From Pseudomonas phage Phipami28, in sequence record PV029746.1: a DNA stretch of 56,919 bases; one strand, written 5' to 3'. Made by a program: the position numbers and the translations under genes. Positions 23,604 through 36,383 of the stretch are shown here, piece after piece (position 1 is the stretch's first letter; every line of letters starts with the position of its first letter). The notes beneath the pieces were generated by a model. It was not told where the DNA came from, made no database searches, and worked only from the letters and a program-made list of their open reading frames with translations.

Positions 23604-23804
23604 TTGCAGAGGATGAAAGACATACGTTGTGGCGGCTGCAACCGCCTGCTGGCCCGCGCCGGCCAATTCGATCAAATCCAAATCAAGTGTCCCCGGTGCG
23701 GGACCTTGAATCACCTGAAGGCCGAGAGCCTCCTGATAGCGCCGCTGAGCGCCCCATGCCGTCAGGAGGCATCATGTCCGCCCAACCCATCATTCCCTGG
23801 ATAG
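23604..23804 (+). CDS. com: Com-like zinc-finger translational regulator (Mu com homolog)
   Basis: MKDIRCGGCNRLL...FDQIQIKCPRCG aligns with Mu Com (MKSIRCKNCNKLL...FDHIEIRCPRCK). Overlaps the start of the downstream methylase as com overlaps mom in Mu. Confidence 0.6.
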   Translation: MQRMKDIRCGGCNRLLARAGQFDQIQIKCPRCGTLNHLKAESLLIAPLSAPCRQEASCPPNPSFPG

Positions 23805-24568
23805 GGGGTAAACGTCGGCTCGCCGATCGGATCTTTCAGTTGTTCCCACGCCACTCCTGCTATGTGGAGCCGTTCGCAGGAGGAGCTGCTCTGTTTTTCC
23901 TCCGCCCGGTGCCGGCAGAGGTTGAGGTTCTCAACGACGTCAACGGCGACTTGGTCAATCTGTACCGGGTCGTTCAGCACCACCTGGAGGAGTTCGTCCG
24001 TCAATTCAAATGGGCACTCAGTTCTCGCCAGGTATTCAAGTGGCTGCAGGAGACGCGCGTGGAGACCCTGACCGACATCCAACGCGCGGCCAGGTTCTAC
24101 TACCTGCAGCAGAGCGCCTTCGGCGGGCGTGTGGATTGCCAAAGTTACGGAACGGCCACCACGCAGCCGCCAGGTCTCAACCTGCTGCGGATCGAGGAGG
24201 CGCTCTCTGCCGCTCATCTGCGCCTGAGCAACACATACATCGAGCATCTGACCTGGCAGGACTGCCTGAAGCGCTACGACCGCGAGCACACGCTCTTCTA
24301 CATGGACCCACCATACTGGGAGACAGAGGGCTACGGCGTGCCGTTCGGCTTCGAGCAATACCTGGAGATGGCTGAGATGCTGAAGCGGTTGAAGGGGAAG
24401 GCAATCATCAGCCTGAACGACCATCCAGATATCCGGCGCTGCTTTGCCGACTATCACATCGAGACGACGGACATCCGGTACACGGTCGGAGGTGGCAAGG
24501 GGAGTGACGCACGGGAGGTTCTGATCTTCAGCTGGGATATCCAGGCGGAACCCGCCGGGCTATTCTGA
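23774..24568 (+). CDS. dam: DNA adenine methyltransferase (Dam / D12-class N6-A MTase)
   Basis: ATG at 23774 preceded by AGGAGG. MDPPYW (DPPY) catalytic motif and FxGG motif. The ORF track's earlier start at 23627 is probably not used. Confidence 0.8.
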   Translation: MSAQPIIPWIGGKRRLADRIFQLFPRHSCYVEPFAGGAALFFLRPVPAEVEVLNDVNGDLVNLYRVVQHHLEEFVRQFKWALSSRQVFKWLQETRVETLTDIQRAARFYYLQQSAFGGRVDCQSYGTATTQPPGLNLLRIEEALSAAHLRLSNTYIEHLTWQDCLKRYDREHTLFYMDPPYWETEGYGVPFGFEQYLEMAEMLKRLKGKAIISLNDHPDIRRCFADYHIETTDIRYTVGGGKGSDAREVLIFSWDIQAEPAGLF

Positions 24569-26725
24569 GGCGGCCAGACACGCAGCTTCGCCTACGACCT
24601 CAACGACAATCCGGTCGGCGAAACCAACCCGCGCCAGTTCGCCCACAGCCAGGCCTTCGACGCCCTCGACCGGCTGGTCGGCCAGAGCGATCCCCTCGGC
24701 GGCAAGACCCAACTCGCCTACGACGCCCAGGACAACCTCACCGAGGTCAAGGACCCGCGCGGCGTCACCGCCCGCTACGAATACGACGGGCTCGGCAACC
24801 TGACCCGACTGGTCAGCCCGGACAGCGGCACCACCACCTTCGAGCACGACGCCGCCGGTAACGTCATCCGCCGCACCGACGCTCGCGGTACGGTCACCGA
24901 GTATCGCTACGACGCCCTCAATCGCCTGATCGAGCGCCGCTCGCCGAGCGACCCGAGCCTCGACGTACAGTACCGCTACGACCTCACCGCCGACGGCAAC
25001 CAGGGCATCGGCCGCCTGGGCTCCATCGAAGGCGCTCGCGACAGCCTGGTGTACCGCTACGACGAGCGCGGCAACCTGGTCGAGCAGGTGCGCAGCATCC
25101 GCCTCGACCAGCAGACCCTGCTCGACCGCGTGACCTACCGCTACGACGCGGCCAACCAACTGCTGGAGATCGGCTACCCCTCCGGCCTCGCCATCGGCTA
25201 CCCGCGCAACGCCGGCGGCCAGGTCGCCAGCGTGACCCTGGCAGTAGGCGACAAGGCGCCGAGCACCCTGGTCGGGCAGATCGCCTACCTGCCCTTCGGC
25301 CCGCTGCTGCGCCTGACCTGGGGCAACGGCATCGCCCTCAGCCGCGAGTATGACCAGGACTACCAACTGCTGCGGCAGAAGGTCGGCCCCTGGCAGAGCG
25401 ACTATCAGCACGATGCCAATGGCAATATCCAGCAGCACCGCCACAGCCTCTGGGGCACCCTGGACTACCAGTACGACCCGCTGGACCGCCTGACCGAGGA
25501 ACGCGGCGTCCAGGGCGGGCGCAGCTATGCCTACGACGCGGTCGGCAACCGCACCCAACGCAGCGACAACCCCGCCTCAGGCGGCACCTCCAGCAGCCAG
25601 GACTACCAGTACGCGCCCGACAGTAACCGATTGACCGCCATCGGCGCGCAAGCGGTGACGAGCGACGCCGCCGGCAACCTCACCCAGGACCGCGCCGCGC
25701 GCAAACTGGCCTACGACGCCCAGGGCCGCCTGCAAAGCGTCAGCCGCGACGGCCAGCAGGTCGCCGAATACCGCTACAACGCCCTCGGCCAACGCATCGT
25801 CAAGCTCACCGCCGAGAGCGTCACCACCTACCTCTACGGTCCCGACGGCCAGTTGCTCGGCGAAGCCGAACACGACGGCAGCGGCCGGAAACTGCGAGCC
25901 CAGTATTACCTGTGGCTGGACAGCCTGCCGCTGGCCACCATCGACGCCGACTACGACGCCCAGGGCAAGGTCGGCAACCCGACCCTGCTCTACCTCCATG
26001 GCGACCACCTCGACACCCCGCGCCTGGCCACCGACGCCAGCGGCCAGATCGCCTGGCAGTGGCAGTCCGACGCCTTCGGCCGCGGCGAAGCGCTGAGCCA
26101 GGGCAGCACCCAGGTCAACCTGCGCTTCCCCGGGCAGTACTACGATGCGGAGAGCGGGCTGCATTACAACTACTTCCGCGACTATGATCCAGAGACTGGG
26201 CGGTATGTGGAGAGTGATCCGATTGGGTTGGTAGGAGGATTAAATACATATGGATATGTAGAGGGAAATCCACTCGGACTTTCAGATCCACTAGGACTGG
26301 CTCCAGGGGATATGTTTGCAACAGAGGCTGCGGCACGAGCAGATGCTCTTGCTTATCAGGAATCTGTGAACAGTAGCATTGATAGATGGCTATGGGGGAA
26401 TATGGTCTATGGCTTCCGTGTGTTTAAAGCCTCCGATTGCCTTTGGACCTACGAAGTACAGACCCCAGTCTTGGGAATTGCGCCTCCACTTGGCCCCAAA
26501 GGTCCTTGGAAAGTCAACAAGCCAGGAGTTTCAGGAAAGGCAGGAGCTAAAGACGTTCCAAGCTGGGCAAAAGGGGATAGGCCATATCAAGGCGAATCAG
26601 GGAAAGACTTTGCCAAACGCATCATGGATCAAAAATATGGCAAAGGTAACTGGAAAGACGGACCAGGCTCTGAATACAACCAGATCAAAAAGTGGGGTGA
26701 CAGATCGTTCATAGACCCCAAGTAA
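24569..26725 (+). pseudogene. rhs: N-terminally truncated Rhs/YD-repeat protein 3' fragment with C-terminal toxin domain
   Basis: Open frame begins at the Dam stop codon with no start codon for 480 nt. Repeated YRYD/YxYDxxGN YD repeats. Rhs core-terminating motif DPIGL...NPLGLSDPLGL at ~26200-26300, then a ~147-aa low-GC tail. Confidence 0.6.
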
Positions 26726-27645: not shown

Positions 27646-28109
27646 GACGTCGGGCGCCGACTCCTCGCCGGCGGTAGTGGTTCATGGTGGTCGGCGAGGC
27701 CTGGCGCAAGGTGGGCAACTATCCGGCCCTTACGCTCTCCGGCCTGGTCGCTGTGCTGCCCGAGGTGATCGCCCGGCTGACGGCTGATCCGGCAGCCTCG
27801 AAGGTGGTCGACTGGACCAGATGCTGGAGTGGCAACTGCGGGCTGTCGGCCAAGCGCAAGGCCTCAGCCAAGTCGATGACCCGGCCCAGCCGAGGCATTG
27901 CCTGTCACTCTGTGACAGGTCCGTGACGGATCACCATCACGCCCACATCGGGAGCGACCAGCTCGCCAGAGGCCGGGCAATTCTGCGGGCTCAGCATGGC
28001 CTCAAAATTGAGGACATGATTATTACGAAAGTTTCGTAATACCCAAATCTGGAGGACTTGAGCGCGCGGGGACAAGCGTACGTGCGGCGTCCGACTGGTG
28101 CGCAGGTCC

Positions 28110-28892: not shown

Positions 28893-29478
28893 CCTATCTC
28901 GCCGTTCTCTGCTGGTTATGGCCACGCAGTGTGATGGTCTGATCCGATGCAAATGATGGGGCAAGTCGAATGCAATCAGGTGGTCAAGTATGTGCCATTG
29001 CACACCTTGTTCAAACCAACCGGCTGCAAGTCAGGGCTTCAGCCAATGGCGAGTGCATCCGGAACTGGAGGGATCATCTCTGTTGGAACATCTCCGGATA
29101 GCCGGGTATGTAACTGCGGAGCGGCCCGCTCGCGCTCTTCAAAGGACCCTAGCCGTCCAGTTCGTACGGATAACTTGAGGTCTACATGAGAGGTTTCTCG
29201 GCAACTGCCAGTTCCGGTTTCTCCTGAAAGCATGGCTGCTAGCGAGAACCGGAAGCGCCTACCCCTTGGTTGTTGTATTGAATCGACGAAAGCCAGCAAC
29301 GACGTGGGTTACAGCGCTACGACTAAACAACAACCAACCCCCGAAAAATTTCATATGTAGAGCGAGACCGAGGTTCGAATTACCCTCTCCAAGGACCACG
29401 CTTCAGGGGCCCCCGGTGCTTTTCGGGTAGCACGTCACTCGCCCGCTTGGTTCCAGTCCATGGGCTTGCCCTTACGGG

Positions 29479-29778
29479 TTAGCCATCTGTGTCTTCATCC
29501 TCATTTTCGTAATAGTCCTCAAGCTCCTTGGCCAAGTCGTGGCCTTTCCAGGTCAAATGGAACACCTGCTTACCGTCTGGTGCGGCTTCCGTGGAGCGAA
29601 TGAAGCCCTCTCCCTCGAGTAGTTTGAGATAGTGCTCGAACTCGTCGTCCGGCATTTTCCCCAGCAACTCCTCCTTCGAGTAGCTACCCTTGAGCCCGCG
29701 GAGATCGACAGGTTTGTAGAACTCGTAGGCGCGGAGCCCCTCGAGGATGACGAACGCTTTCTGTTTGTCACGGATCAT
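29479..29778 (-). CDS. Hypothetical protein with winged-helix-like core and acidic tail
   Basis: 99 aa. C-terminal EDYYENEDEDTDG. Confidence 0.3.
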   Translation of the reverse strand: MIRDKQKAFVILEGLRAYEFYKPVDLRGLKGSYSKEELLGKMPDDEFEHYLKLLEGEGFIRSTEAAPDGKQVFHLTWKGHDLAKELEDYYENEDEDTDG

Positions 29779-29882: not shown

Positions 29883-30701
29883 TCAGGTAGACAGATCCGC
29901 CAGGGTTATCGCCTGGGTGTCAGGCGCAAACGTCGGCAGCTTCAGGCCTCCCAGGTGATCTCGCATGCCTTGCGCCACGAGTTGGGCACCGATCTTGGCC
30001 AAGGCGGCAGCAGCGCGGTCCCATTCAGCACCCAGGCGAATACATGTCGCGTCCCTGTGCTCCACCTGTGCCGCTTGTTCTGCTTGGTGCGCCTCGGCCA
30101 GTTGTTCGGCCAGACCCGCAGCCTCCTCCTCTAGAGCTGCAACCAGTGGGGCATTGGCCTCTGCTGATGCGCGCGCCGCCTTTGCCGCAGTGCCGGCCGC
30201 GTCTATCTTCGCCTGGGCGGCTTTGGCGGCCTTCTTGTCACCGCTCGCCGTGGCCCTGGCCATTTCCTGGGCTGCCGCTACCTCGACGTCCTTGGCCTGC
30301 TGGAGCGACTGCTCGGTGTTGCCCTGTATCTGCTCCAGATGGCCGCGCACCCGCTCCAGGCTTTCGGTGATGCTGGCGATACGTACCGCAGCAGCCTTCT
30401 CTTGCTCTGTCGCCAGGGCGATCCGCTCATCAGCGCCAGCTAACTTTTTGGCGTAGGCAATGCGGATGTCGAGTTGACGGAGGTTATGGTCAATCGAGTC
30501 AATGCTAGCCCTGGTGTTGGACAGGGCGTCGCGAGCCGCTTGCTTCTCTTCACTGCCTACCATGTTGCCCAGGTGCCAGCCAGTGGGAGCTTGCTCAAGG
30601 GCGTTTTCCAGGCGGGGTAGGTCTGCCTCCAGACGCTCCCGCTCCTCAATGAGATCCTGGCGCTGTTGTTGCAGTTGGTTCAGTTCGTTGTTGCCGCTCA
30701 T
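29883..30701 (-). CDS. Coiled-coil protein of unknown function
   Basis: ATG at 30701 with a GGAGAA RBS. 272 aa, Ala/Gln/Glu-rich heptad repeats. Confidence 0.4.
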   Translation of the reverse strand: MSGNNELNQLQQQRQDLIEERERLEADLPRLENALEQAPTGWHLGNMVGSEEKQAARDALSNTRASIDSIDHNLRQLDIRIAYAKKLAGADERIALATEQEKAAAVRIASITESLERVRGHLEQIQGNTEQSLQQAKDVEVAAAQEMARATASGDKKAAKAAQAKIDAAGTAAKAARASAEANAPLVAALEEEAAGLAEQLAEAHQAEQAAQVEHRDATCIRLGAEWDRAAAALAKIGAQLVAQGMRDHLGGLKLPTFAPDTQAITLADLST

Positions 30702-30957
30702 GCTGGGTTCTCCAGTGTTCAAAGGTTGTGGTGAATGCTGGCGCGCTAGGCCCGGTTCGCGGTGTTCCTCCATCGGTAATAGCGGTTCAGAGGGGCGGAA
30801 GCTCCGTATCAGCCCTGTAGCTACCCCATGCGGTCTGGTTGTCGGCGATTAGGACGGTGCGTATCCCTGCAACTCGGCGGCGACTCCGGTATCAGTCCGT
30901 CCAGCAGGGGCGCCATGCCCAAGTACTCAAGGTGAGCGCGAATCTCATCGTCGATGC

Positions 30958-31257
30958 TCATGGTCCTACCTCGGCGTCAGGCCATATCCCCTGCGCGTGC
31001 GCCAGCGCTTCGGCATGAGTGCAGGGCTCGCCAACCATGACGAAGGGACGGCAATCAGGGAGGCATACCCGCCAGTGCGCCCGACGCTCGATGCCATCGT
31101 TGGCGGCCAGTTCGGCGAGCAGTTCGAGGCGGTGTGCTTTGACGTACTTACGCACGTCATCGGTGAGCTTTGATGCAGGGGAGACGATGATGCGCTTCCC
31201 CTGTGCCTTGGCGGTCAAGCCACGTTCGCGGAGGAAGTCGATAGCAGCGCCCATCAC
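30958..31257 (-). CDS. Hypothetical protein
   Basis: 99 aa. 4-nt overlap with the upstream DUF3631 gene. Confidence 0.35.
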   Translation of the reverse strand: MMGAAIDFLRERGLTAKAQGKRIIVSPASKLTDDVRKYVKAHRLELLAELAANDGIERRAHWRVCLPDCRPFVMVGEPCTHAEALAHAQGIWPDAEVGP

Positions 31258-32804
31258 AGTGCCTCCGCATCGCTCTCGTCCCAGATCGGTTCCGGCCTCT
31301 CGACCTCTTTCCTGGGAGGGGGTGTTTTATCCGCGACACCGTGACAGCCTGCGTCGTTACTGGGCTGCGAGGTTTTTTTATCCGCGACAGAGAGGGGTGG
31401 TGTCGCGGATTTAAAATCTCTGGAGGTCGCGTGGGAGTAGGCGTGTCGCGCTGTCGCGGATGGAAGGGAGGGTTCGGGGGAAAGGTAGCGTCCGAAGGCG
31501 TCGGAGAAGTCGGCACGGTCGTACCCTTTCTTGTTGGTGGAGCCGATGCGGATGTCCTTCGACTTGATGCCGAACTCCGCCAGCTTGGCCGACAGTTGCC
31601 GGGGTGACATCGGCTTGCCTCGGTTCCAGGTCGCCCAGGGCGCCTCCTCATCGGCAACCAGTGCCTCGAGCAGATCGGCACTGAATACCTTGCTGGCGCT
31701 CTTCGCCTCGAACACCGCCTTTACGTCTGCCAGCAGCTCGGCACCGATGCTAGGAGATTCACCTTCCAGCCCGTGCAGGGCGATGGCAGCGTTGCGGGCC
31801 GACTTCGGCCAGTGGTCGCCGGCTAGGTCGGCAATGGCCAGCAGAGGCTCCCAAGCGTCGTTGGCGCGGTCGTTCAGGCCAGGGATGGGGGCCGGCCTTG
31901 CCTTGCCGATGGCCTCGGCGCTATCGAGCGCGAAGCGGGCCAGGCGCGAACGCAGCGACTCCCACAAGGCGGGGTCGGAGTGGCGCAGGCTCTCCACGTT
32001 TTCACCAGCGGTACGTCGCCGCAGACGCAATGGCACGCTGCGGTCGGCCAGGGTGTCGGCGATCTTGCCGATACCGCACAGCGCCTTGGCGCCCCACACG
32101 TTGAATGCGGTGGGCATGTGATCGTCTCCGACGCAGCGAATGACGATGGCGCTGTCTCGCGTGAAGCCGGCATTGAGGATGCCGCGGGCGTCTTCGTGGG
32201 CGGCCAGGAAGGCGTCTACCTCGTCTATCAGTAGTGTCGGTGCCCACAGCTCGATGGAGCGATACAGCGCAGCGGGGGCAATGTTCGACACCTGCAAGGG
32301 ACGGTTGGCCAACTTGCCCAGGGCGGTGAGCAAGATAGACTTGCCACAGCGCTTTTCCGGCGCAGTGATGTTGGCGATGGGCGCCACCTGCACCACGTCC
32401 ACCAGCCAGGTGAAGGCAGCCCACAACGCGGCAGCCCGCAGCGTTTCCTTGTCCGCGATCACGTGCCGGGCCAGGGCATGGGTCACGTCATCGAGCAGGT
32501 CTGCACCATCCACCGGCTCCGGCCACGGCTCCACCTCTTCGAAGATGCTGGCGTTAGCGGGCCCGGCGTCGTCGTCCACGCAGGCGGTTAAGCGATCGAA
32601 CTCGGCCATGCTTAGCACCTTGGCGTCCTTGACCTGGGCGCGCAGCCGGGCAAAGGCAGCGGGGTCCTTGGCGCGCATCTTCTTGAGCTGGCCGAGGATG
32701 GTGGTCTCGTACAGGGCGCCAGCATCCTCCTCCAGTCTCTTGAGCGCATCAGCCACTTGGTCAACGGTGGCCCATTGGTCTGCAAAGCGGTCTTGAGCTG
32801 TCAT
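31254..32804 (-). CDS. DUF3631 / P4-alpha-like primase-helicase C-terminal domain protein
   Basis: Walker A-like CGKSILLTALGKL and Walker B-like LLIDEVD. 516 aa. Downstream of and coupled to the CHC2 zinc-finger gene. Confidence 0.65.
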   Translation of the reverse strand: MTAQDRFADQWATVDQVADALKRLEEDAGALYETTILGQLKKMRAKDPAAFARLRAQVKDAKVLSMAEFDRLTACVDDDAGPANASIFEEVEPWPEPVDGADLLDDVTHALARHVIADKETLRAAALWAAFTWLVDVVQVAPIANITAPEKRCGKSILLTALGKLANRPLQVSNIAPAALYRSIELWAPTLLIDEVDAFLAAHEDARGILNAGFTRDSAIVIRCVGDDHMPTAFNVWGAKALCGIGKIADTLADRSVPLRLRRRTAGENVESLRHSDPALWESLRSRLARFALDSAEAIGKARPAPIPGLNDRANDAWEPLLAIADLAGDHWPKSARNAAIALHGLEGESPSIGAELLADVKAVFEAKSASKVFSADLLEALVADEEAPWATWNRGKPMSPRQLSAKLAEFGIKSKDIRIGSTNKKGYDRADFSDAFGRYLSPEPSLPSATARHAYSHATSRDFKSATPPLSVADKKTSQPSNDAGCHGVADKTPPPRKEVERPEPIWDESDAEAL

Positions 32805-33175
32805 TTGACCCCCAACCGCTGCTTTGCCAGGTGGAAGCGCGCCAGGTCTTCGGCGGCTATTTCCTTGCCTTGCTCGAGTAGGTTCTTGCCGATCAGGTAC
32901 ACCGCTCGCTCATGCTGGATGGCTTCACGGCTGGGGCCGGTGCGTTGGCGCTTCTCGCCCGGGAACAGGTCAGCCATCTGCAAGCCGACCGCCGCCACGA
33001 TCTCGGCAGCCGTGCAGCCAACCCAGCACTTGAGCAGGACCGTACCGTCCTCGGTCTCGGTGACGCGCAGGCTGGGTGACTTGTCGTCGTGGGCCGGACA
33101 GCAGGCTTTCCAGCGGCTTTTGCCGTCCGCCTTCACCTTGTCCAGGCGTGGCAGCAGCTTATCGATGGGGGTCAT
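32801..33175 (-). CDS. CHC2 zinc-finger primase N-terminal domain protein
   Basis: KACCPAHDDKSPSL DnaG-type CHC2 zinc finger. 124 aa. Confidence 0.6.
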   Translation of the reverse strand: MTPIDKLLPRLDKVKADGKSRWKACCPAHDDKSPSLRVTETEDGTVLLKCWVGCTAAEIVAAVGLQMADLFPGEKRQRTGPSREAIQHERAVYLIGKNLLEQGKEIAAEDLARFHLAKQRLGVK

Positions 33176-34036: not shown

Positions 34037-34266
34037 TGGGCACCCCCTTCCTGGGCAATCTCGGCTGCCTCACACAGGCTGTAACCAGCGTCTTTGACGT
34101 AGACCGAGATCGTCAGGACCGCATGGACCAGACCGTTGATGTGGTCCTTGTTGAGGAAGTGCTCGGAACCGTCGGCACCAAGCAGGTTGGCGATGGTTTC
34201 CAGGGCGAAGCCCGCGCCGGTCAGGTTGCCGCCGATGGAGTCGGAGAGCGTCACCAGGTTACGCAT
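34033..34266 (-). CDS. Hypothetical protein
   Basis: 77 aa. Confidence 0.3.
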   Translation of the reverse strand: MRNLVTLSDSIGGNLTGAGFALETIANLLGADGSEHFLNKDHINGLVHAVLTISVYVKDAGYSLCEAAEIAQEGGAQ

Positions 34267-34507
34267 GGGACACCTCCTTGGTCTTCAGAGCAGCAGCGAT
34301 CTCTTCGCAGGCATCGGCCCAGGCATCGCCCTCTAGGTTCTCCAGCCAGGCGCAGGCGTTGGACTGGGCTTCGAGGGAGCGCTGGATAGCGCGGTGGTGG
34401 TTGTAGCGGTTGAGTCGAACGGCAAGGGAGGAATTGCTGCGCAGGGCAGCAAGGGCCATTGCCCGGTGGGCGGCGACGCGTGCTTTGGACGGATTACGGG
34501 TGGTCAT
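34259..34507 (-). CDS. Hypothetical protein
   Basis: ATG at 34507 with a GGAG RBS. 82 aa. Confidence 0.3.
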   Translation of the reverse strand: MTTRNPSKARVAAHRAMALAALRSNSSLAVRLNRYNHHRAIQRSLEAQSNACAWLENLEGDAWADACEEIAAALKTKEVSHA

Positions 34508-34782
34508 GGGGTTAGCTCCAAGGCTGAAATGGAGCTGCCTCGACCCGTCGCCAAACGAGTAATGGAGGCAGCTGTGCGCAGGTTGGCGAACCGGGGCCTT
34601 GGTACCCGGCAGACCCGAAGGTCTCCCACGCACAGCCGCCATGACACGGAGCGGCAGGCACAAAAAAAGCGCCTGCTGTCGGTTGGGGCGCTTATGCGCC
34701 AAGGACATCGGGTCGCCAAACCCGGCCACGGGATTTACCGTGACGGGCAAACCATAGCGCCAGCATGGAGGGATTGCAAGCG

Positions 34783-35007
34783 TCATGCGACCTCCCCTCG
34801 GCTTTCAGCTACGCGAGCGTCACACCAGTCCATAACTTCGGACTCGATCCAAACAACGGACTTCGGACCAAGGATGACTTGTGCGGGGAAAGTCCCGGCT
34901 GCGATACGGCGATATATCTCGGAGCACGAAAGGCCGGTGATCTCTTCCACGGCCTGGCGCTTGATAAAGCGGCGGATGGGTTGGGTACTGCTGGTGGTGC
35001 TTGCCAT
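34783..35007 (-). CDS. alpA: AlpA-family phage transcriptional regulator (excisionase-like DNA-binding protein)
   Basis: RFIKRQAVEEITGLSCSEIYRRIAAGTFP AlpA-type HTH. ATG at 35007 with an AAGGAGG RBS. Confidence 0.65.
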   Translation of the reverse strand: MASTTSSTQPIRRFIKRQAVEEITGLSCSEIYRRIAAGTFPAQVILGPKSVVWIESEVMDWCDARVAESRGEVA

Positions 35008-35118
35008 CGTCTGCGCCTCCTTGGGCGTGATTGGAAACGATGGCTGCACGGTAAAGGTGAGGGTGGGGGTGACAGCTATGGGCGACATAGTGTCATCTCA
35101 CACTGTCACCCATTAGGG

Positions 35119-36021
35119 TCAATCGCCCGATATCGAGTCGGGCTTGATAGCTGATGCCAATACTATTGCTTTACGCGCCGGCTCATTATTTGACTGAAGC
35201 GAAAGATCTAATAACTCTCCAATTTCAATCCCGATCTCCTTCTGGGTCGGCTGCCTCTTATCTGGCGTATAGTCTGCCCAGTACTTCATAGCAGCAGCGT
35301 GCATGGCCTTGAGCTCTCTGGTGGCATAGGGAAAGGCAATTCCTGGTTCAGAAGAACTGCCAGCTAAGGGGACGTCCTCTCCGCCCGTTACAGGAGAGTC
35401 CACTGGACCAGTGACCACAAGCTCCTCACCCACCACCCTCAACTTTAAAAGTTCAAGCAATCTCCCAATTAGAGCTATATCATTTCCGTATCTTCCATAC
35501 AGTACAGGCGCATCCACACCAACTACACGAGCAATAGTATTTAGGCCAACTGACTCAACACGACTTCTAATTAGATCCTCGGATGACCGGGCCACTGGGT
35601 GGTTCGACATGAGGGGAAGCGAAGCGTTCATCTTACGCGCCAACGTCTCGATGTCTGCGGGCCTAACCTCGGGCCCTCTCGATTCATCGTACTCTTCCAA
35701 GCACCAGCGACACCCATGAAGAGTTCTAACACAAGACAAATCAGAAATATCGCCAATCAACTCGACCGAACTGTCATTATAAAGCTGAGACGGATTGCAC
35801 ACGCGAGAATACCCCACCCCAGCAACACTTATGGAATCACTCTCCTCATAGTTTATTAAAGTTCCGCGCCAACCTTCACAATTGAGGTAGACAGGACACT
35901 CCCCAAACTCACAAAGCTGAAGAGTCTCAAATATATCCAACTCAGTTCCTGTTAACTGCCTTAGCCACCTAGAAGCTTGCTCAATCGACAACCACGGGAA
36001 AAATCGATATGCCTTTTCCAA
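35119..36021 (-). CDS. Low-GC cargo protein of unknown function occupying the integrase position of the island
   Basis: 300 aa. TTG start at 36021 preceded by GGGGGAGG. GC content clearly below the surroundings. No recombinase R..HxxR..Y motifs. No recognisable domain. Confidence 0.45.
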   Translation of the reverse strand: MEKAYRFFPWLSIEQASRWLRQLTGTELDIFETLQLCEFGECPVYLNCEGWRGTLINYEESDSISVAGVGYSRVCNPSQLYNDSSVELIGDISDLSCVRTLHGCRWCLEEYDESRGPEVRPADIETLARKMNASLPLMSNHPVARSSEDLIRSRVESVGLNTIARVVGVDAPVLYGRYGNDIALIGRLLELLKLRVVGEELVVTGPVDSPVTGGEDVPLAGSSSEPGIAFPYATRELKAMHAAAMKYWADYTPDKRQPTQKEIGIEIGELLDLSLQSNNEPARKAIVLASAIKPDSISGD

Positions 36022-36175
36022 TTACATGCCTCCCCCAAGTGCTCCCCATCGAACGGATCGGCCAGCCTGGCAGGTGGGGGACCTGCTCTTCGCCCCGTCG
36101 GGCTAGGCTGGCCAAACGCTCTGCCGGCACTGGTTATCCGAACAGTAATAGCCAGATATTAACCACGGATGCTCC

Positions 36176-36210
36176 GGGAACAAAGGGGAATTGTCGGGAA
36201 CAAAGGGGAG
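36176..36210 (+). repeat. Direct repeats CGGGAACAAAGGGGA x2 (iteron / arm-site-like)
   Basis: Exact 14-15 bp repeat at 36176-36189 and 36197-36210, followed by a TTTGGGGG x2 repeat. Confidence 0.4.
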
Positions 36211-36315
36211 TAAATCGATGCAGAACCTCGGGGTACTTTTCGTTTTGGGGGTATATTTGGGGGAGTAGCCTAAAACACAAACCAGGGAAACCCCGTAAAT
36301 ACACGGACTGTAGCC

Positions 36316-36343
36316 CACAGTTCGATTCCGTCCCTGGGCACCA
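36316..36343 (+). other. tRNA 3'-end-like fragment (T-loop GTTCGATTCC ... CCTGGGCACCA); putative att core
   Basis: T-loop, 3' acceptor strand, discriminator A and CCA are present, but no matching 5' acceptor strand or D/anticodon arms lie upstream. Confidence 0.35.
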
Positions 36344-36354
36344 TGAATACGACG

Positions 36355-36383
36355 AAAAGGCTCACCTCCGGGTGGGCCTTTTT
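36355..36383 (-). terminator. Bidirectional terminator-like hairpin downstream of the SDR gene
   Basis: AAAAGGCTCACC tccg GGTGGGCCTTTTT. Confidence 0.4.

What the first reader, a model, noticed from the sequence alone, without database searches (positions are those of the whole stretch)
35119..36343. Unknown 300-aa low-GC cargo gene sits where the integrase should be in a P4/PICI-like island, flanked by iteron-like repeats and a tRNA 3' fragment
The island (AlpA, CHC2 zinc-finger primase, DUF3631, small ORFs) has the classic int-alpA-primase architecture, but no tyrosine recombinase gene is present. Between AlpA and the att-like tRNA 3' fragment (36316-36343) lies a 300-aa ORF (TTG start with GGAGG RBS). 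Its GC content is clearly below the ~65% background and it has no recognisable motifs. Upstream are exact direct repeats (CGGGAACAAAGGGGA x2, TTTGGGGG x2) resembling arm-type binding sites. Att-proximal positions of satellite-like islands are known cargo and defence hotspots. This may be an uncharacterised anti-phage or accessory gene acquired by replacement of int.
Basis: partly seen in the sequence, partly recalled or inferred. Interest (0 to 1): 0.7.

Follow-up and report, generated by a model that had tools for sequence, protein, structure and literature searches.

The report
Conserved satellite gene, integrase lost
The 300-aa gene did not replace the integrase: it is the uncharacterised gene that normally sits just downstream of the integrase in P4-like phage satellites of Pseudomonas, and this P. 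aeruginosa copy has lost its integrase through a rearrangement.

Summary
The 300-aa TTG-start ORF (35119-36021, minus strand), its low GC, the two direct repeats and a 24-nt tRNA-Phe 3' fragment (36320-36343) are all present. No integrase is detectable anywhere in the window.

The ORF belongs to an unannotated family ("ORFX", about 218 representatives). In 22 of 26 loci from other Pseudomonadales it lies immediately after a P4-type integrase, and in 23 of 26 immediately before alpA. A structured RNA leader, Rfam int-alpA, ends 21-29 nt before its start codon. So it coexists with int; it does not replace it.

In P. aeruginosa this end of the island is joined, in inverted orientation, to a genuine attR arm. 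The arrangement is fixed in all ten strains examined.

The island is P4-like: alpA, then a1b1 targets, then C4/CI RNA, then primase, as in P4.

ORFX has no known fold or defence-family match. It carries a weak CII-like HTH. It behaves as an independently recombining cassette under purifying selection.

Best guess: a DNA-binding regulatory or specificity protein of the satellite. An anti-phage role is not excluded, because P4's defence hotspot occupies the same slot. Moderate interest.

The parts
35119..36021 (-). ORF300, the 'ORFX' family member. N-terminal alpha/beta domain (aa 1-134), CII-like HTH (aa ~143-195), disordered linker (195-224), conserved 3-helix C-terminal domain (225-300).
   Evidence: - ORF and translation.
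- 64 homologues. 218 representatives at E<=1e-10.
- AF2 pLDDT 81, with the N and C domains above 90.
- phrog_725 E 1.6e-5 for aa 135-210 scanned alone.
- Intact and identical in amino-acid sequence in 9 of 10 other P. aeruginosa genomes.
36046..36113 (-). int-alpA RNA motif (RF02996), the structured 5' leader of ORF300. It is followed by an SD-containing hairpin region (36022-36045).
   Evidence: - Rfam 54.4 bits against a gathering score of 35.8.
- The same motif ends 21-29 nt before the ORFX start in about 20 loci.
- RNAalifold gives a 3-way junction with 11 covarying pairs, plus an SD hairpin.
36175..36209 (.). Two exact 15-nt direct repeats, CGGGAACAAAGGGGA, spaced 20 nt. Role unknown.
   Evidence: Found. 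Present only in the P. aeruginosa copies among the 54 loci fetched.
36229..36319 (+). attR-type P arm, including the paired TTTGGGGG arm-type sites (36244-36251 and 36256-36263).
   Evidence: - 71% identical over 117 nt to the attR of the canonical S. stutzeri island, L028 17123-17238, in the same orientation.
- The TTTGGGGG-N5-TTGGGGG motif also occurs in attR of L028 and attL of L039.
36320..36343 (+). att core: the last 24 nt of tRNA-Phe. This is the right border of the island.
   Evidence: The empty-site loci L008, L012 and L016 match the window only from 37200 down to 36320.
34783..35088 (-). alpA (Vis/AlpA-family regulator/excisionase)
   Evidence: Pfam Phage_AlpA E 7e-18. PHROG 'excisionase and transcriptional regulator'.
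34561..34757 (-). P4-type RNA immunity unit: a1b1 target sites (34705-34757) and C4/CI antisense RNA (34561-34646). It lies inside the over-called 175-aa ORF 34259-34786.
   Evidence: Rfam RF03163 53 bits and RF01695 75.8 bits. Same order after orf88/vis in phage P4 and in the relatives.
31254..33175 (-). Replication module: CHC2 zinc-finger protein (32801-33175) and DUF3631 primase-associated protein (31254-32804).
   Evidence: Pfam. The identical DUF3631 protein is indexed in 4054 blocks of the assembly collection. All nine places shown are P. aeruginosa loci with the same arrangement.

Best explanation
ORF300 is the P. aeruginosa member of an unannotated protein family, called ORFX here.

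**Normal setting (shown).** The family belongs to the integrase-proximal regulatory module of small P4-like, tRNA-integrating satellites of Pseudomonadales. The order is tRNA, then P4-type int, then the int-alpA RNA leader, then ORFX, then alpA, then a1b1 and C4/CI RNA, then small ORFs, then primase.

**Setting in this window (shown).** The module has no integrase. Its int-proximal end is joined in inverted orientation to a genuine attR arm of tRNA-Phe.

**How that arose (inferred).** An inversion or similar rearrangement of the island interior separated ORFX from int. This left an immobile remnant that is now nearly clonal in the species.

**Mechanism (inferred).**
- ORFX is a modular nucleic-acid-binding regulatory protein.
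- Its domains are a conserved N-terminal alpha/beta domain, a swappable middle (a CII-like HTH here, a coiled coil in most relatives) and a very conserved basic 3-helix C-terminal domain.
- Its translation is gated by a structured leader that encloses the Shine-Dalgarno sequence.
- It acts with Int and AlpA on the satellite's integration, excision or induction decision.
- It may be the element's specificity determinant, in the manner of the SaPI Stl repressor or lambda CII.

The placement and synteny part is firm (about 0.85). The regulatory function is a best guess (about 0.4).
For: **Synteny**
- int lies immediately upstream in 22 of 26 non-aeruginosa loci, and alpA immediately downstream in 23 of 26.
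- These islands sit at tRNA-Leu, Thr, Phe and Pro, with a tmRNA 3' end upstream of int in L042.

**RNA leader**
- The int-alpA RNA ends 21-29 nt before the ORFX start in about 20 loci.
- It shows covariation and a conserved SD hairpin.
- It is absent from P4, CP4-57, vB_Pae_U1 and phiAH14b, all of which lack ORFX.

**P4 likeness**
- The order alpA, a1b1, C4 RNA is the same as in P4.

**Borders and orientation**
- Similarity to island-free strains ends at 36320.
- Window 36229-36343 is homologous to a canonical attR in direct orientation.
- Window 36034-36116 matches the int-alpA region in reverse orientation.
- The same arrangement occurs in all 10 P. aeruginosa loci.

**Real, selected protein**
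- AF2 pLDDT exceeds 90 in the N and C domains.
- dN/dS is about 0.2.

**DNA-binding hints**
- A CII-like HTH is detected in three members.
- Weak TetR-type HTH matches appear in PDB sequences.
- Single members hit MerR_1 and HTH_17.
- K255, R256, R283 and K284 are conserved basic residues in the C domain.

**Not defence-like**
- No PADLOC hit and no enzymatic or membrane domain.
Against: **Function**
- hhalign against AlpA is negative.

**Slot and cassette behaviour**
- The slot after int is P4's defence hotspot (PMC9122126).
- Unrelated genes fill it in phiAH14b and vB_Pae_U1.
- ORFX alleles recombine independently of their flanks. dS is 1.6-1.9 against 0.1-0.75 for the flanks. This also fits a defence or counter-defence cassette.

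**Inversion model**
- It is inferred from one junction only. The other junction lies outside the window.

**Expression**
- No sigma-70-like promoter was found upstream, so the gene may be silent here.

**Leader**
- L002, L005, L032 and L033 have ORFX without an int-alpA RNA hit at the gathering score.
Confidence: 0.5

Rival explanations
1. ORFX is an anti-phage or phage-interference cassette carried in an integrase-adjacent hotspot. This would be the Pseudomonas counterpart of the P4 psu-int hotspot, which in P4 holds gop-beta-cII.
For: - Positional equivalence to P4 cII: P4 runs attP, int, cII.
- gop-beta-cII protects against lambda and P1, and the slot holds more than 300 gene arrangements in E. 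coli (PMC9122126).
- Unrelated genes occupy the slot in phiAH14b (p02) and vB_Pae_U1.
- ORFX is the lowest-GC gene in 6 of 6 islands.
- It shows cassette-like independent recombination and 4-5 times higher dN/dS than its flanks.
- Its domains are shuffled.
Against: - One family fills the slot in all 26 non-aeruginosa loci retrieved. Those loci were found by searching for ORFX itself, so its frequency among P4-like islands in general is not measured. It does show that the family travels with very different integrases, tRNA sites and primases. True hotspots show turnover of unrelated systems.
- It has a dedicated, covarying leader RNA.
- There is no PADLOC match, and no nuclease, ATPase, TIR or transmembrane effector domain.
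- There is no partner gene.
Confidence: 0.2
2. ORFX is a maintenance or partition-type DNA-anchoring protein for the episomal form of the satellite, analogous to RacA or the single-protein pSK1 Par. The architecture would be a winged-helix N domain, a coiled coil and a C-terminal interaction domain.
For: - Most family members have an N domain, a long coiled coil and a C domain (coiled-coil matches).
- From established P4 biology, not tested here: P4 can persist as a plasmid.
Against: - The scores are at noise level.
- The P. aeruginosa protein lacks the coiled coil.
- No centromere-like repeat array is conserved. The 15-nt repeats are P. aeruginosa-specific.
- Rapid allele turnover is unusual for a partition protein.
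Confidence: 0.08
3. ORF300 is a degraded or highly diverged integrase, or a spurious ORF in a decayed island end.
For: It sits next to the att site, where many islands carry int. It is annotated with different starts (132-300 aa) in different genomes.
Against: - No similarity to six integrases by tblastn, and no Phage_integrase Pfam hit.
- Homologues coexist with a full int.
- The fold prediction is confident, and the protein is conserved over genera at 27-40% identity with dN/dS of 0.2.
- The different lengths are start-codon choices on identical DNA.
Confidence: 0.01

Closest known systems
Satellite phage P4 (X51522): int-cII and orf88(vis)-CI RNA-epsilon-alpha
   Same: - The prophage order is the same: tRNA, int, a gene of about 260-300 aa, then Vis/AlpA, a1b1 targets, C4/CI RNA, small ORFs and primase.
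- The integrases of the relatives are P4-type, with Arm-DNA-bind_3.
   Different: - ORFX shows no detectable homology to P4 cII.
- No sid, delta, psu, gop or beta genes are seen.
- The primase partner is DUF3631 or DUF927, not P4 alpha.
- P4 lacks the int-alpA RNA leader.
- The window copy has no int.
P4-like satellite defence hotspot (Rousset et al. 2022, PMC9122126)
   Same: The slot is adjacent to int. The occupying gene is uncharacterised, low in GC, and exchanged by recombination independently of the backbone.
   Different: The E. coli hotspot holds more than 300 unrelated arrangements. Here one family recurs with a dedicated leader RNA. It has no known defence domain, and no phenotype has been tested.
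SaPI master repressor Stl (PICI paradigm)
   Same: It is next to int, multi-domain with an HTH, and highly divergent between otherwise similar islands. This makes it a candidate specificity determinant. The comparison is functional only and rests on established knowledge of SaPIs.
   Different: Stl is divergently transcribed from the island operon. ORFX is co-directional with int and alpA. No sequence or fold similarity was found. These islands already have P4-type RNA immunity.
Lambda CII-type regulators (PHROG 725)
   Same: The middle 60 aa of ORF300 match the CII-like HTH profile (E 1.6e-5). So do P0005 and P0025.
   Different: Only the HTH segment matches. It is embedded in a 300-aa protein with two other domains, and most family members replace it with a coiled coil.
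Pseudomonas satellite phiAH14b (KU708005, PMC4936722), gene AH14b_p02
   Same: phiAH14b is an experimentally induced and packaged Pseudomonas satellite with int, a 318-aa unknown protein, alpA, C4 RNA, Toprim and a helicase. The slot and the protein size are the same, and p02 has a coiled-coil middle.
   Different: The p02 family is not detectably homologous to ORFX. There is no int-alpA RNA before it.

Membership tests
P4-like satellite (the island as a whole) | P4-type tyrosine integrase next to a tRNA/tmRNA att site | tested here: not met
   There is no integrase in the window. It is present in 22 of 26 related loci.
P4-like satellite (the island as a whole) | Vis/AlpA regulator followed by CI (C4-type) antisense RNA and its target sites | tested here: met
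   Phage_AlpA E 7e-18. RF03163 and RF01695 lie directly after alpA. P4 has the same order.
P4-like satellite (the island as a whole) | Primase/replicase of its own | tested here: met
   CHC2 zinc finger (E 3e-5, just below Pfam's cut-off) and DUF3631 (E 8e-59).
P4-like satellite (the island as a whole) | Capsid-size and helper-manipulation genes sid, delta, psu, and a cos site | tested here: not met
   None of the ten island ORFs scanned matches these in Pfam. cos was not searched.
Tyrosine recombinase (degraded integrase) | Similarity to the Phage_integrase catalytic domain or to island integrases | tested here: not met
   Homologues coexist with an intact int.
Known anti-phage defence proteins | Match to a PADLOC model, or a recognisable effector domain | tested here: not met
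   PADLOC gives 0 families. No Pfam domain. No fold match.
Known anti-phage defence proteins | Confers phage resistance when expressed | not testable with these tools
   Needs plaque assays.
Satellite defence hotspot cargo (Rousset 2022) | Slot between conserved backbone genes with turnover of unrelated genes | tested here: inconclusive
   - The slot holds unrelated genes in phiAH14b and vB_Pae_U1, and ORFX alleles recombine independently of the flanks.
- Against this, one family fills the slot in all 26 loci that were retrieved through ORFX itself, across very different backbones.
int-alpA RNA (Rfam RF02996) | Score above the family's gathering threshold, with the consensus structure | tested here: met
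   54.4 bits against 35.8. Covariation is seen in the 18-sequence alignment.
Lambda CII-like regulator | CII-type HTH | tested here: inconclusive
   phrog_725 E 1.6e-5 over profile positions 11-71 of 101. There is no PDB sequence match to CII.
Excisionase/MerR-type winged helix (HTH_17) | Profile or fold match of the N domain | tested here: inconclusive
- One family member each hits MerR_1 and HTH_17 weakly.
- hhalign against an AlpA alignment is negative.

The most novel reading that the evidence does not exclude
The int-alpA RNA leader plus ORFX form a previously unrecognised, independently recombining specificity cassette of Pseudomonas P4-like satellites. Either it is a Stl-like sensor and regulator that decides which helper phage induces the element, or it is a new single-gene anti-phage or interference protein with a new fold. 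In both cases its translation would be gated by a dedicated structured RNA.
Probability: 0.25. Interest if true: 0.6.

Novelty: new variant of a known kind. Interest (0 to 1): 0.38.

Why it matters
- It corrects a tempting misreading. A gene beside an att site in an int-less island is not necessarily cargo that displaced int.
- It defines an unannotated protein family of about 200 cluster representatives, with no Pfam family and no known fold. The family is a regular component of P4-like satellites in Pseudomonadales.
- It assigns a genomic role to the orphan Rfam motif int-alpA, as the 5' leader of this gene.
- It shows the gene behaves as a separately exchanged cassette between otherwise near-identical satellites. 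That is the signature expected of a helper-specificity or conflict gene.
- The P. aeruginosa copy sits in a widespread, nearly clonal island remnant at tRNA-Phe, so material for experiments is easy to obtain.

Tried and rejected
- **Degraded integrase:** rejected.
- **Homology to E. coli CP4-57 YfjH, the gene between intA and alpA:** none, and YfjH is on the opposite strand.
- **Homology to P4 cII:** none.
- **Homology to phiAH14b p02:** tested as a single sequence and as a 22-sequence profile. Only coiled-coil noise.
- **ORFX N or C domain related to AlpA, or to each other:** hhalign probability below 1%.
- **Fold searches:**
  - Foldseek against PDB and BFVD gave nothing below E 0.06.
  - AFDB50 was unavailable.
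- **Profile search against PDB sequences:** only coiled-coil matches such as stathmin.
- **Genome-contig scan:** returned a single locus, Haliea.
- **The '80-aa site-specific integrase' annotated in vB_Pae_U1 (window 27684-27926):** no integrase similarity. It cannot be used as the second inversion junction.
- **A 14-nt match between the sequence after int in L023 and the sequence upstream of the leader in the window:** compatible with chance, E about 10.
- **The 193-, 170- and 132-aa calls in other strains as truncations:** rejected. The DNA is identical and only the chosen start differs.
- **Two island papers (jumbo-phage-transduced tmRNA islands; PIMEs):** they describe other element families.
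Full report
**1. What is in the sequence**

- The minus strand of 35119-36021 holds a 300-codon ORF. It starts at TTG, with GGAGG 7 nt upstream.
- Its GC content is 0.49. The values for alpA, the DUF3631 gene and the neighbouring host dehydrogenase gene are 0.59, 0.65 and 0.67.
- Between the ORF and 36343 lie four features:
  - two exact 15-nt direct repeats, CGGGAACAAAGGGGA, at 36175-36189 and 36195-36209;
  - a pair of TTTGGGGG motifs at 36244-36251 and 36256-36263;
  - the last 24 nt of tRNA-Phe at 36320-36343 on the plus strand;
  - the tRNA's terminator hairpin at 36355-36382.
- ARAGORN finds no tRNA gene in the window.
- tblastn with six integrases finds no integrase remnant anywhere in the 56.9 kb.

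**2. Where the window comes from, and the island border**

- The dehydrogenase protein beside the fragment is identical in very many P. aeruginosa assemblies.
- In island-free strains such as L008 the order is dehydrogenase, tRNA-Phe, a GFO_IDH_MocA gene, yggX, mutY.
- Similarity between those strains and the window runs from 37200 down to exactly 36320 and then stops. So 36319|36320 is the right island border, and the 24 nt are the att core.
- The left flank of the empty site is absent from the window. The island, which also contains prophage structural genes at 1-23187, therefore extends beyond the window's left end.
- ORF300 lies 298 bp inside the island.

**3. The island is P4-like in detail**

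- Pfam confirms AlpA, a CHC2 zinc finger and DUF3631.
- Rfam finds, directly after alpA, the a1b1 target sites (34705-34757) and a C4/CI antisense RNA (34561-34646).
- Phage P4 has the same order after its Vis/orf88 gene.
- The called 175-aa ORF 34259-34786 is therefore largely RNA genes.

**4. ORF300 belongs to a conserved family that normally follows int**

- A database search gave 64 homologues, all labelled hypothetical. They come mainly from Pseudomonas, Stutzerimonas and Aquipseudomonas, plus Haliea.
- An exhaustive profile search gave 218 cluster representatives at E<=1e-10.
- In five complete or large assemblies the order is tRNA, P4-type int, ORFX, alpA and so on to a primase, all on one strand, in islands of roughly 8 kb.
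- The survey was extended to 26 non-aeruginosa loci from genomes, viral contigs and metagenomes:
  - int is immediately upstream on the same strand in 22;
  - alpA or an AlpA-like gene is immediately downstream in 23;
  - where the sequence reaches far enough, tRNA-Leu, Thr, Phe or Pro precedes int. In L042 a tmRNA 3' end does.
- So the gene coexists with the integrase. It is not what replaced it.

**5. A dedicated RNA leader**

- Rfam's int-alpA motif (RF02996) lies at 36046-36113 on the minus strand, 25 nt before the TTG.
- The same motif ends 21-29 nt before the ORFX start in about 20 loci.
- An 18-sequence alignment folds into a three-way junction with 11 covarying pairs. A small conserved hairpin follows and encloses the Shine-Dalgarno sequence.
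- In the window, the CCCCC loop region of the second hairpin can also pair with the GGGGG of the SD region (inverted repeat I4).
- The motif is absent from P4, CP4-57, vB_Pae_U1 and phiAH14b, none of which has ORFX.
- A few ORFX loci (L002, L005, L032, L033) lack a hit at the gathering score.
- The orphan Rfam motif is thus best described as the 5' leader of ORFX.

**6. Why int is missing here**

- In canonical loci the tRNA and ORFX point the same way. In the window the tRNA fragment is on the plus strand and ORFX on the minus strand.
- Window 36229-36343 is 71% identical over 117 nt to the attR (P arm plus core) of the S. stutzeri tRNA-Phe island L028, in direct orientation. The match includes the paired TTTGGGGG motifs.
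- Window 36034-36116 matches the int-alpA region of L028, L029 and L004 in reverse orientation.
- The motif TTTGGGGG-N5-TTGGGGG also occurs in the attL of another tRNA-Phe island, L039. This supports its reading as an Int arm-type site.
- The 15-nt repeats are found only in the P. aeruginosa copies, and their role is unknown.
- The int-proximal end of the backbone is therefore fused, inverted, to a true attR. A deletion cannot produce this. An inversion or equivalent rearrangement of the island interior is the simplest explanation. That is an inference, because the second junction is outside the window.
- All ten other P. aeruginosa loci examined have the same arrangement at 99.6-100% identity. 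ORF300 is intact and identical in amino-acid sequence in nine of them.
- The 132-, 170- and 193-aa annotations in those genomes are only different start choices.
- One strain, L023, has a full P4-type int resembling the L028 int at the far end of the locus, about 9 kb beyond the DUF3631 gene. It is on the strand expected for a canonical tRNA-then-int layout.

**7. What the protein looks like**

- AlphaFold2 with the 64-sequence alignment gives a mean pLDDT of 81. The predicted parts are:
  - an alpha/beta N domain, aa 1-134, pLDDT about 95;
  - three helices, aa 147-191, pLDDT about 75;
  - a disordered linker, aa 195-224;
  - a three-helix C domain, aa 235-292, pLDDT above 90.
- The C domain is the most conserved part, at 55-70% identity across genera. 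Invariant residues are F230, P231, Y232, T234, W248, P258 and Q260. K255, R256, R283 and K284 are nearly invariant basic residues.
- The middle is variable. Most relatives have a coiled coil there.
- ORF300, P0005 and P0025 instead carry a segment matching the PHROG CII-like HTH (E 1.6e-5, 4.5e-4 and 2.9e-3). It also shows weak TetR-type HTH resemblance.
- Nothing passes threshold in Pfam, NCBIfam or PADLOC.
- Foldseek against PDB and BFVD finds nothing.
- hhalign finds no relation to AlpA, YfjH, P4 cII or the phiAH14b p02 family.

**8. How it evolves**

- ORFX is the lowest-GC gene in six of six islands. Low GC is a family trait.
- Four tRNA-Phe islands were compared. Their int, alpA and primase proteins are 91-100% identical, but their ORFX proteins are only 47-60% identical and carry different N-terminal add-on modules.
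- Synonymous divergence of ORFX is saturated (dS 1.6-1.9), against 0.1-0.75 for the flanks.
- In the pair L050/L051 the reverse holds: ORFX dS is 0.18 and int dS is 1.27.
- dN/dS is about 0.2, against 0.03-0.06 for most flanking genes.
- ORFX is thus a functional gene under purifying selection that is exchanged by recombination independently of its neighbours.

**9. Comparison with what is known**

- In P4 the gene after int is cII. It is part of the gop-beta-cII region, which is the P4-like defence hotspot and itself protects against lambda and P1 (PMC9122126).
- ORFX is positionally equivalent to that slot but not homologous to cII.
- The experimentally induced Pseudomonas satellite phiAH14b has an unrelated 318-aa protein in the same slot (PMC4936722).
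- vB_Pae_U1 shares the replication module at 98% identity. It has an integrase, an oppositely oriented 176-aa gene and a cox-like gene instead.

**10. Verdict**

- The placement is firmly established. ORF300 is a regular, int-adjacent gene of P4-like Pseudomonas satellites, here stranded in an integrase-less, rearranged remnant.
- Its function is unknown. The best-supported guess is a modular nucleic-acid-binding regulator or specificity determinant, with translation controlled by its leader RNA.
- An anti-phage or interference cassette remains a live alternative at about 0.2.
- The finding is a new variant within a known kind of element and is of moderate interest.

Noticed in passing
window 36046-36113 (-), and loci L004, L027-L029, L035, L036, L038-L046, L048-L051: The Rfam 'int-alpA' candidate sRNA (RF02996) consistently ends 21-29 nt upstream of the ORFX start codon. 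A conserved hairpin enclosing the SD follows it. The motif looks like the cis-acting 5' leader of this unannotated gene, not a free-standing sRNA between int and alpA.
   Followed up: partly
window 34259-34786 (-): The 175-aa ORF after alpA is largely occupied by RNA elements: a1b1 targets at 34705-34757, an isrK-like match at 34662-34744, and C4/CI antisense RNA at 34561-34646. Other annotations call only an 82-aa ORF (about 34260-34508) after the RNA. This is the P4-type RNA immunity unit.
   Followed up: partly
window 29321-29448: A non-coding stretch at the distal end of the P4-like module is 90-94% identical to sequences in several P. aeruginosa phage records. In vB_Pae_U6 and U8 it is mid-genome. 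In Pacha_bin_1 it is at the very start of the record. It may be an att or boundary sequence.
   Followed up: no
window 1-23187 and 23627-26725: The rest of the island in the window holds three things:
- prophage structural and tail genes on the plus strand;
- a DNA methyltransferase-like ORF at 23627-24568;
- an Rhs C-terminal toxin-type ORF at 25049-26725, with a low-GC tail (0.44-0.50) and a small downstream ORF.

In other strains a full Rhs gene lies at the corresponding side of the island (L018-L026).
   Followed up: no
window 29883-30773 (-) and 29479-29778 (-): A 296-aa coiled-coil, SMC-like protein has weak PADLOC matches to PbeC, ZorA, JetC, DndD and LmuB coiled-coil regions. A 99-aa winged-helix-like protein has a weak LmuC match. 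Both lie at the distal end of the replication module. The matches are probably coiled-coil noise, but this is a conserved pair in the P. aeruginosa island.
   Followed up: no
L023 20894-20907 versus window 36117-36130: The 14-nt sequence GTGCCGGCAGA(G/T)CG, which contains the palindrome TGCCGGCA, occurs directly after the stop codon of the far-end integrase in L023. It also occurs directly upstream of the int-alpA leader in the window. It could mark the rearrangement breakpoint or be chance (E about 10).
   Followed up: partly
window about 41845 onward versus L008: Megablast similarity between the window and the island-free strain L008 breaks at about window 41844, inside the Methyltransf_32 gene. 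The gene itself is present in both. This may be a divergent allele or a recombination tract in the core flank.
   Followed up: no
L012 and L016 (P. aeruginosa, same tRNA-Phe site): Other strains carry entirely different islands at the same attR. The genes include SEC-C, a 754-aa unknown, AAA, Peptidase_S8 and DEAD/ResIII helicase genes. The tRNA-Phe site is a general integration hotspot in this species.
   Followed up: no
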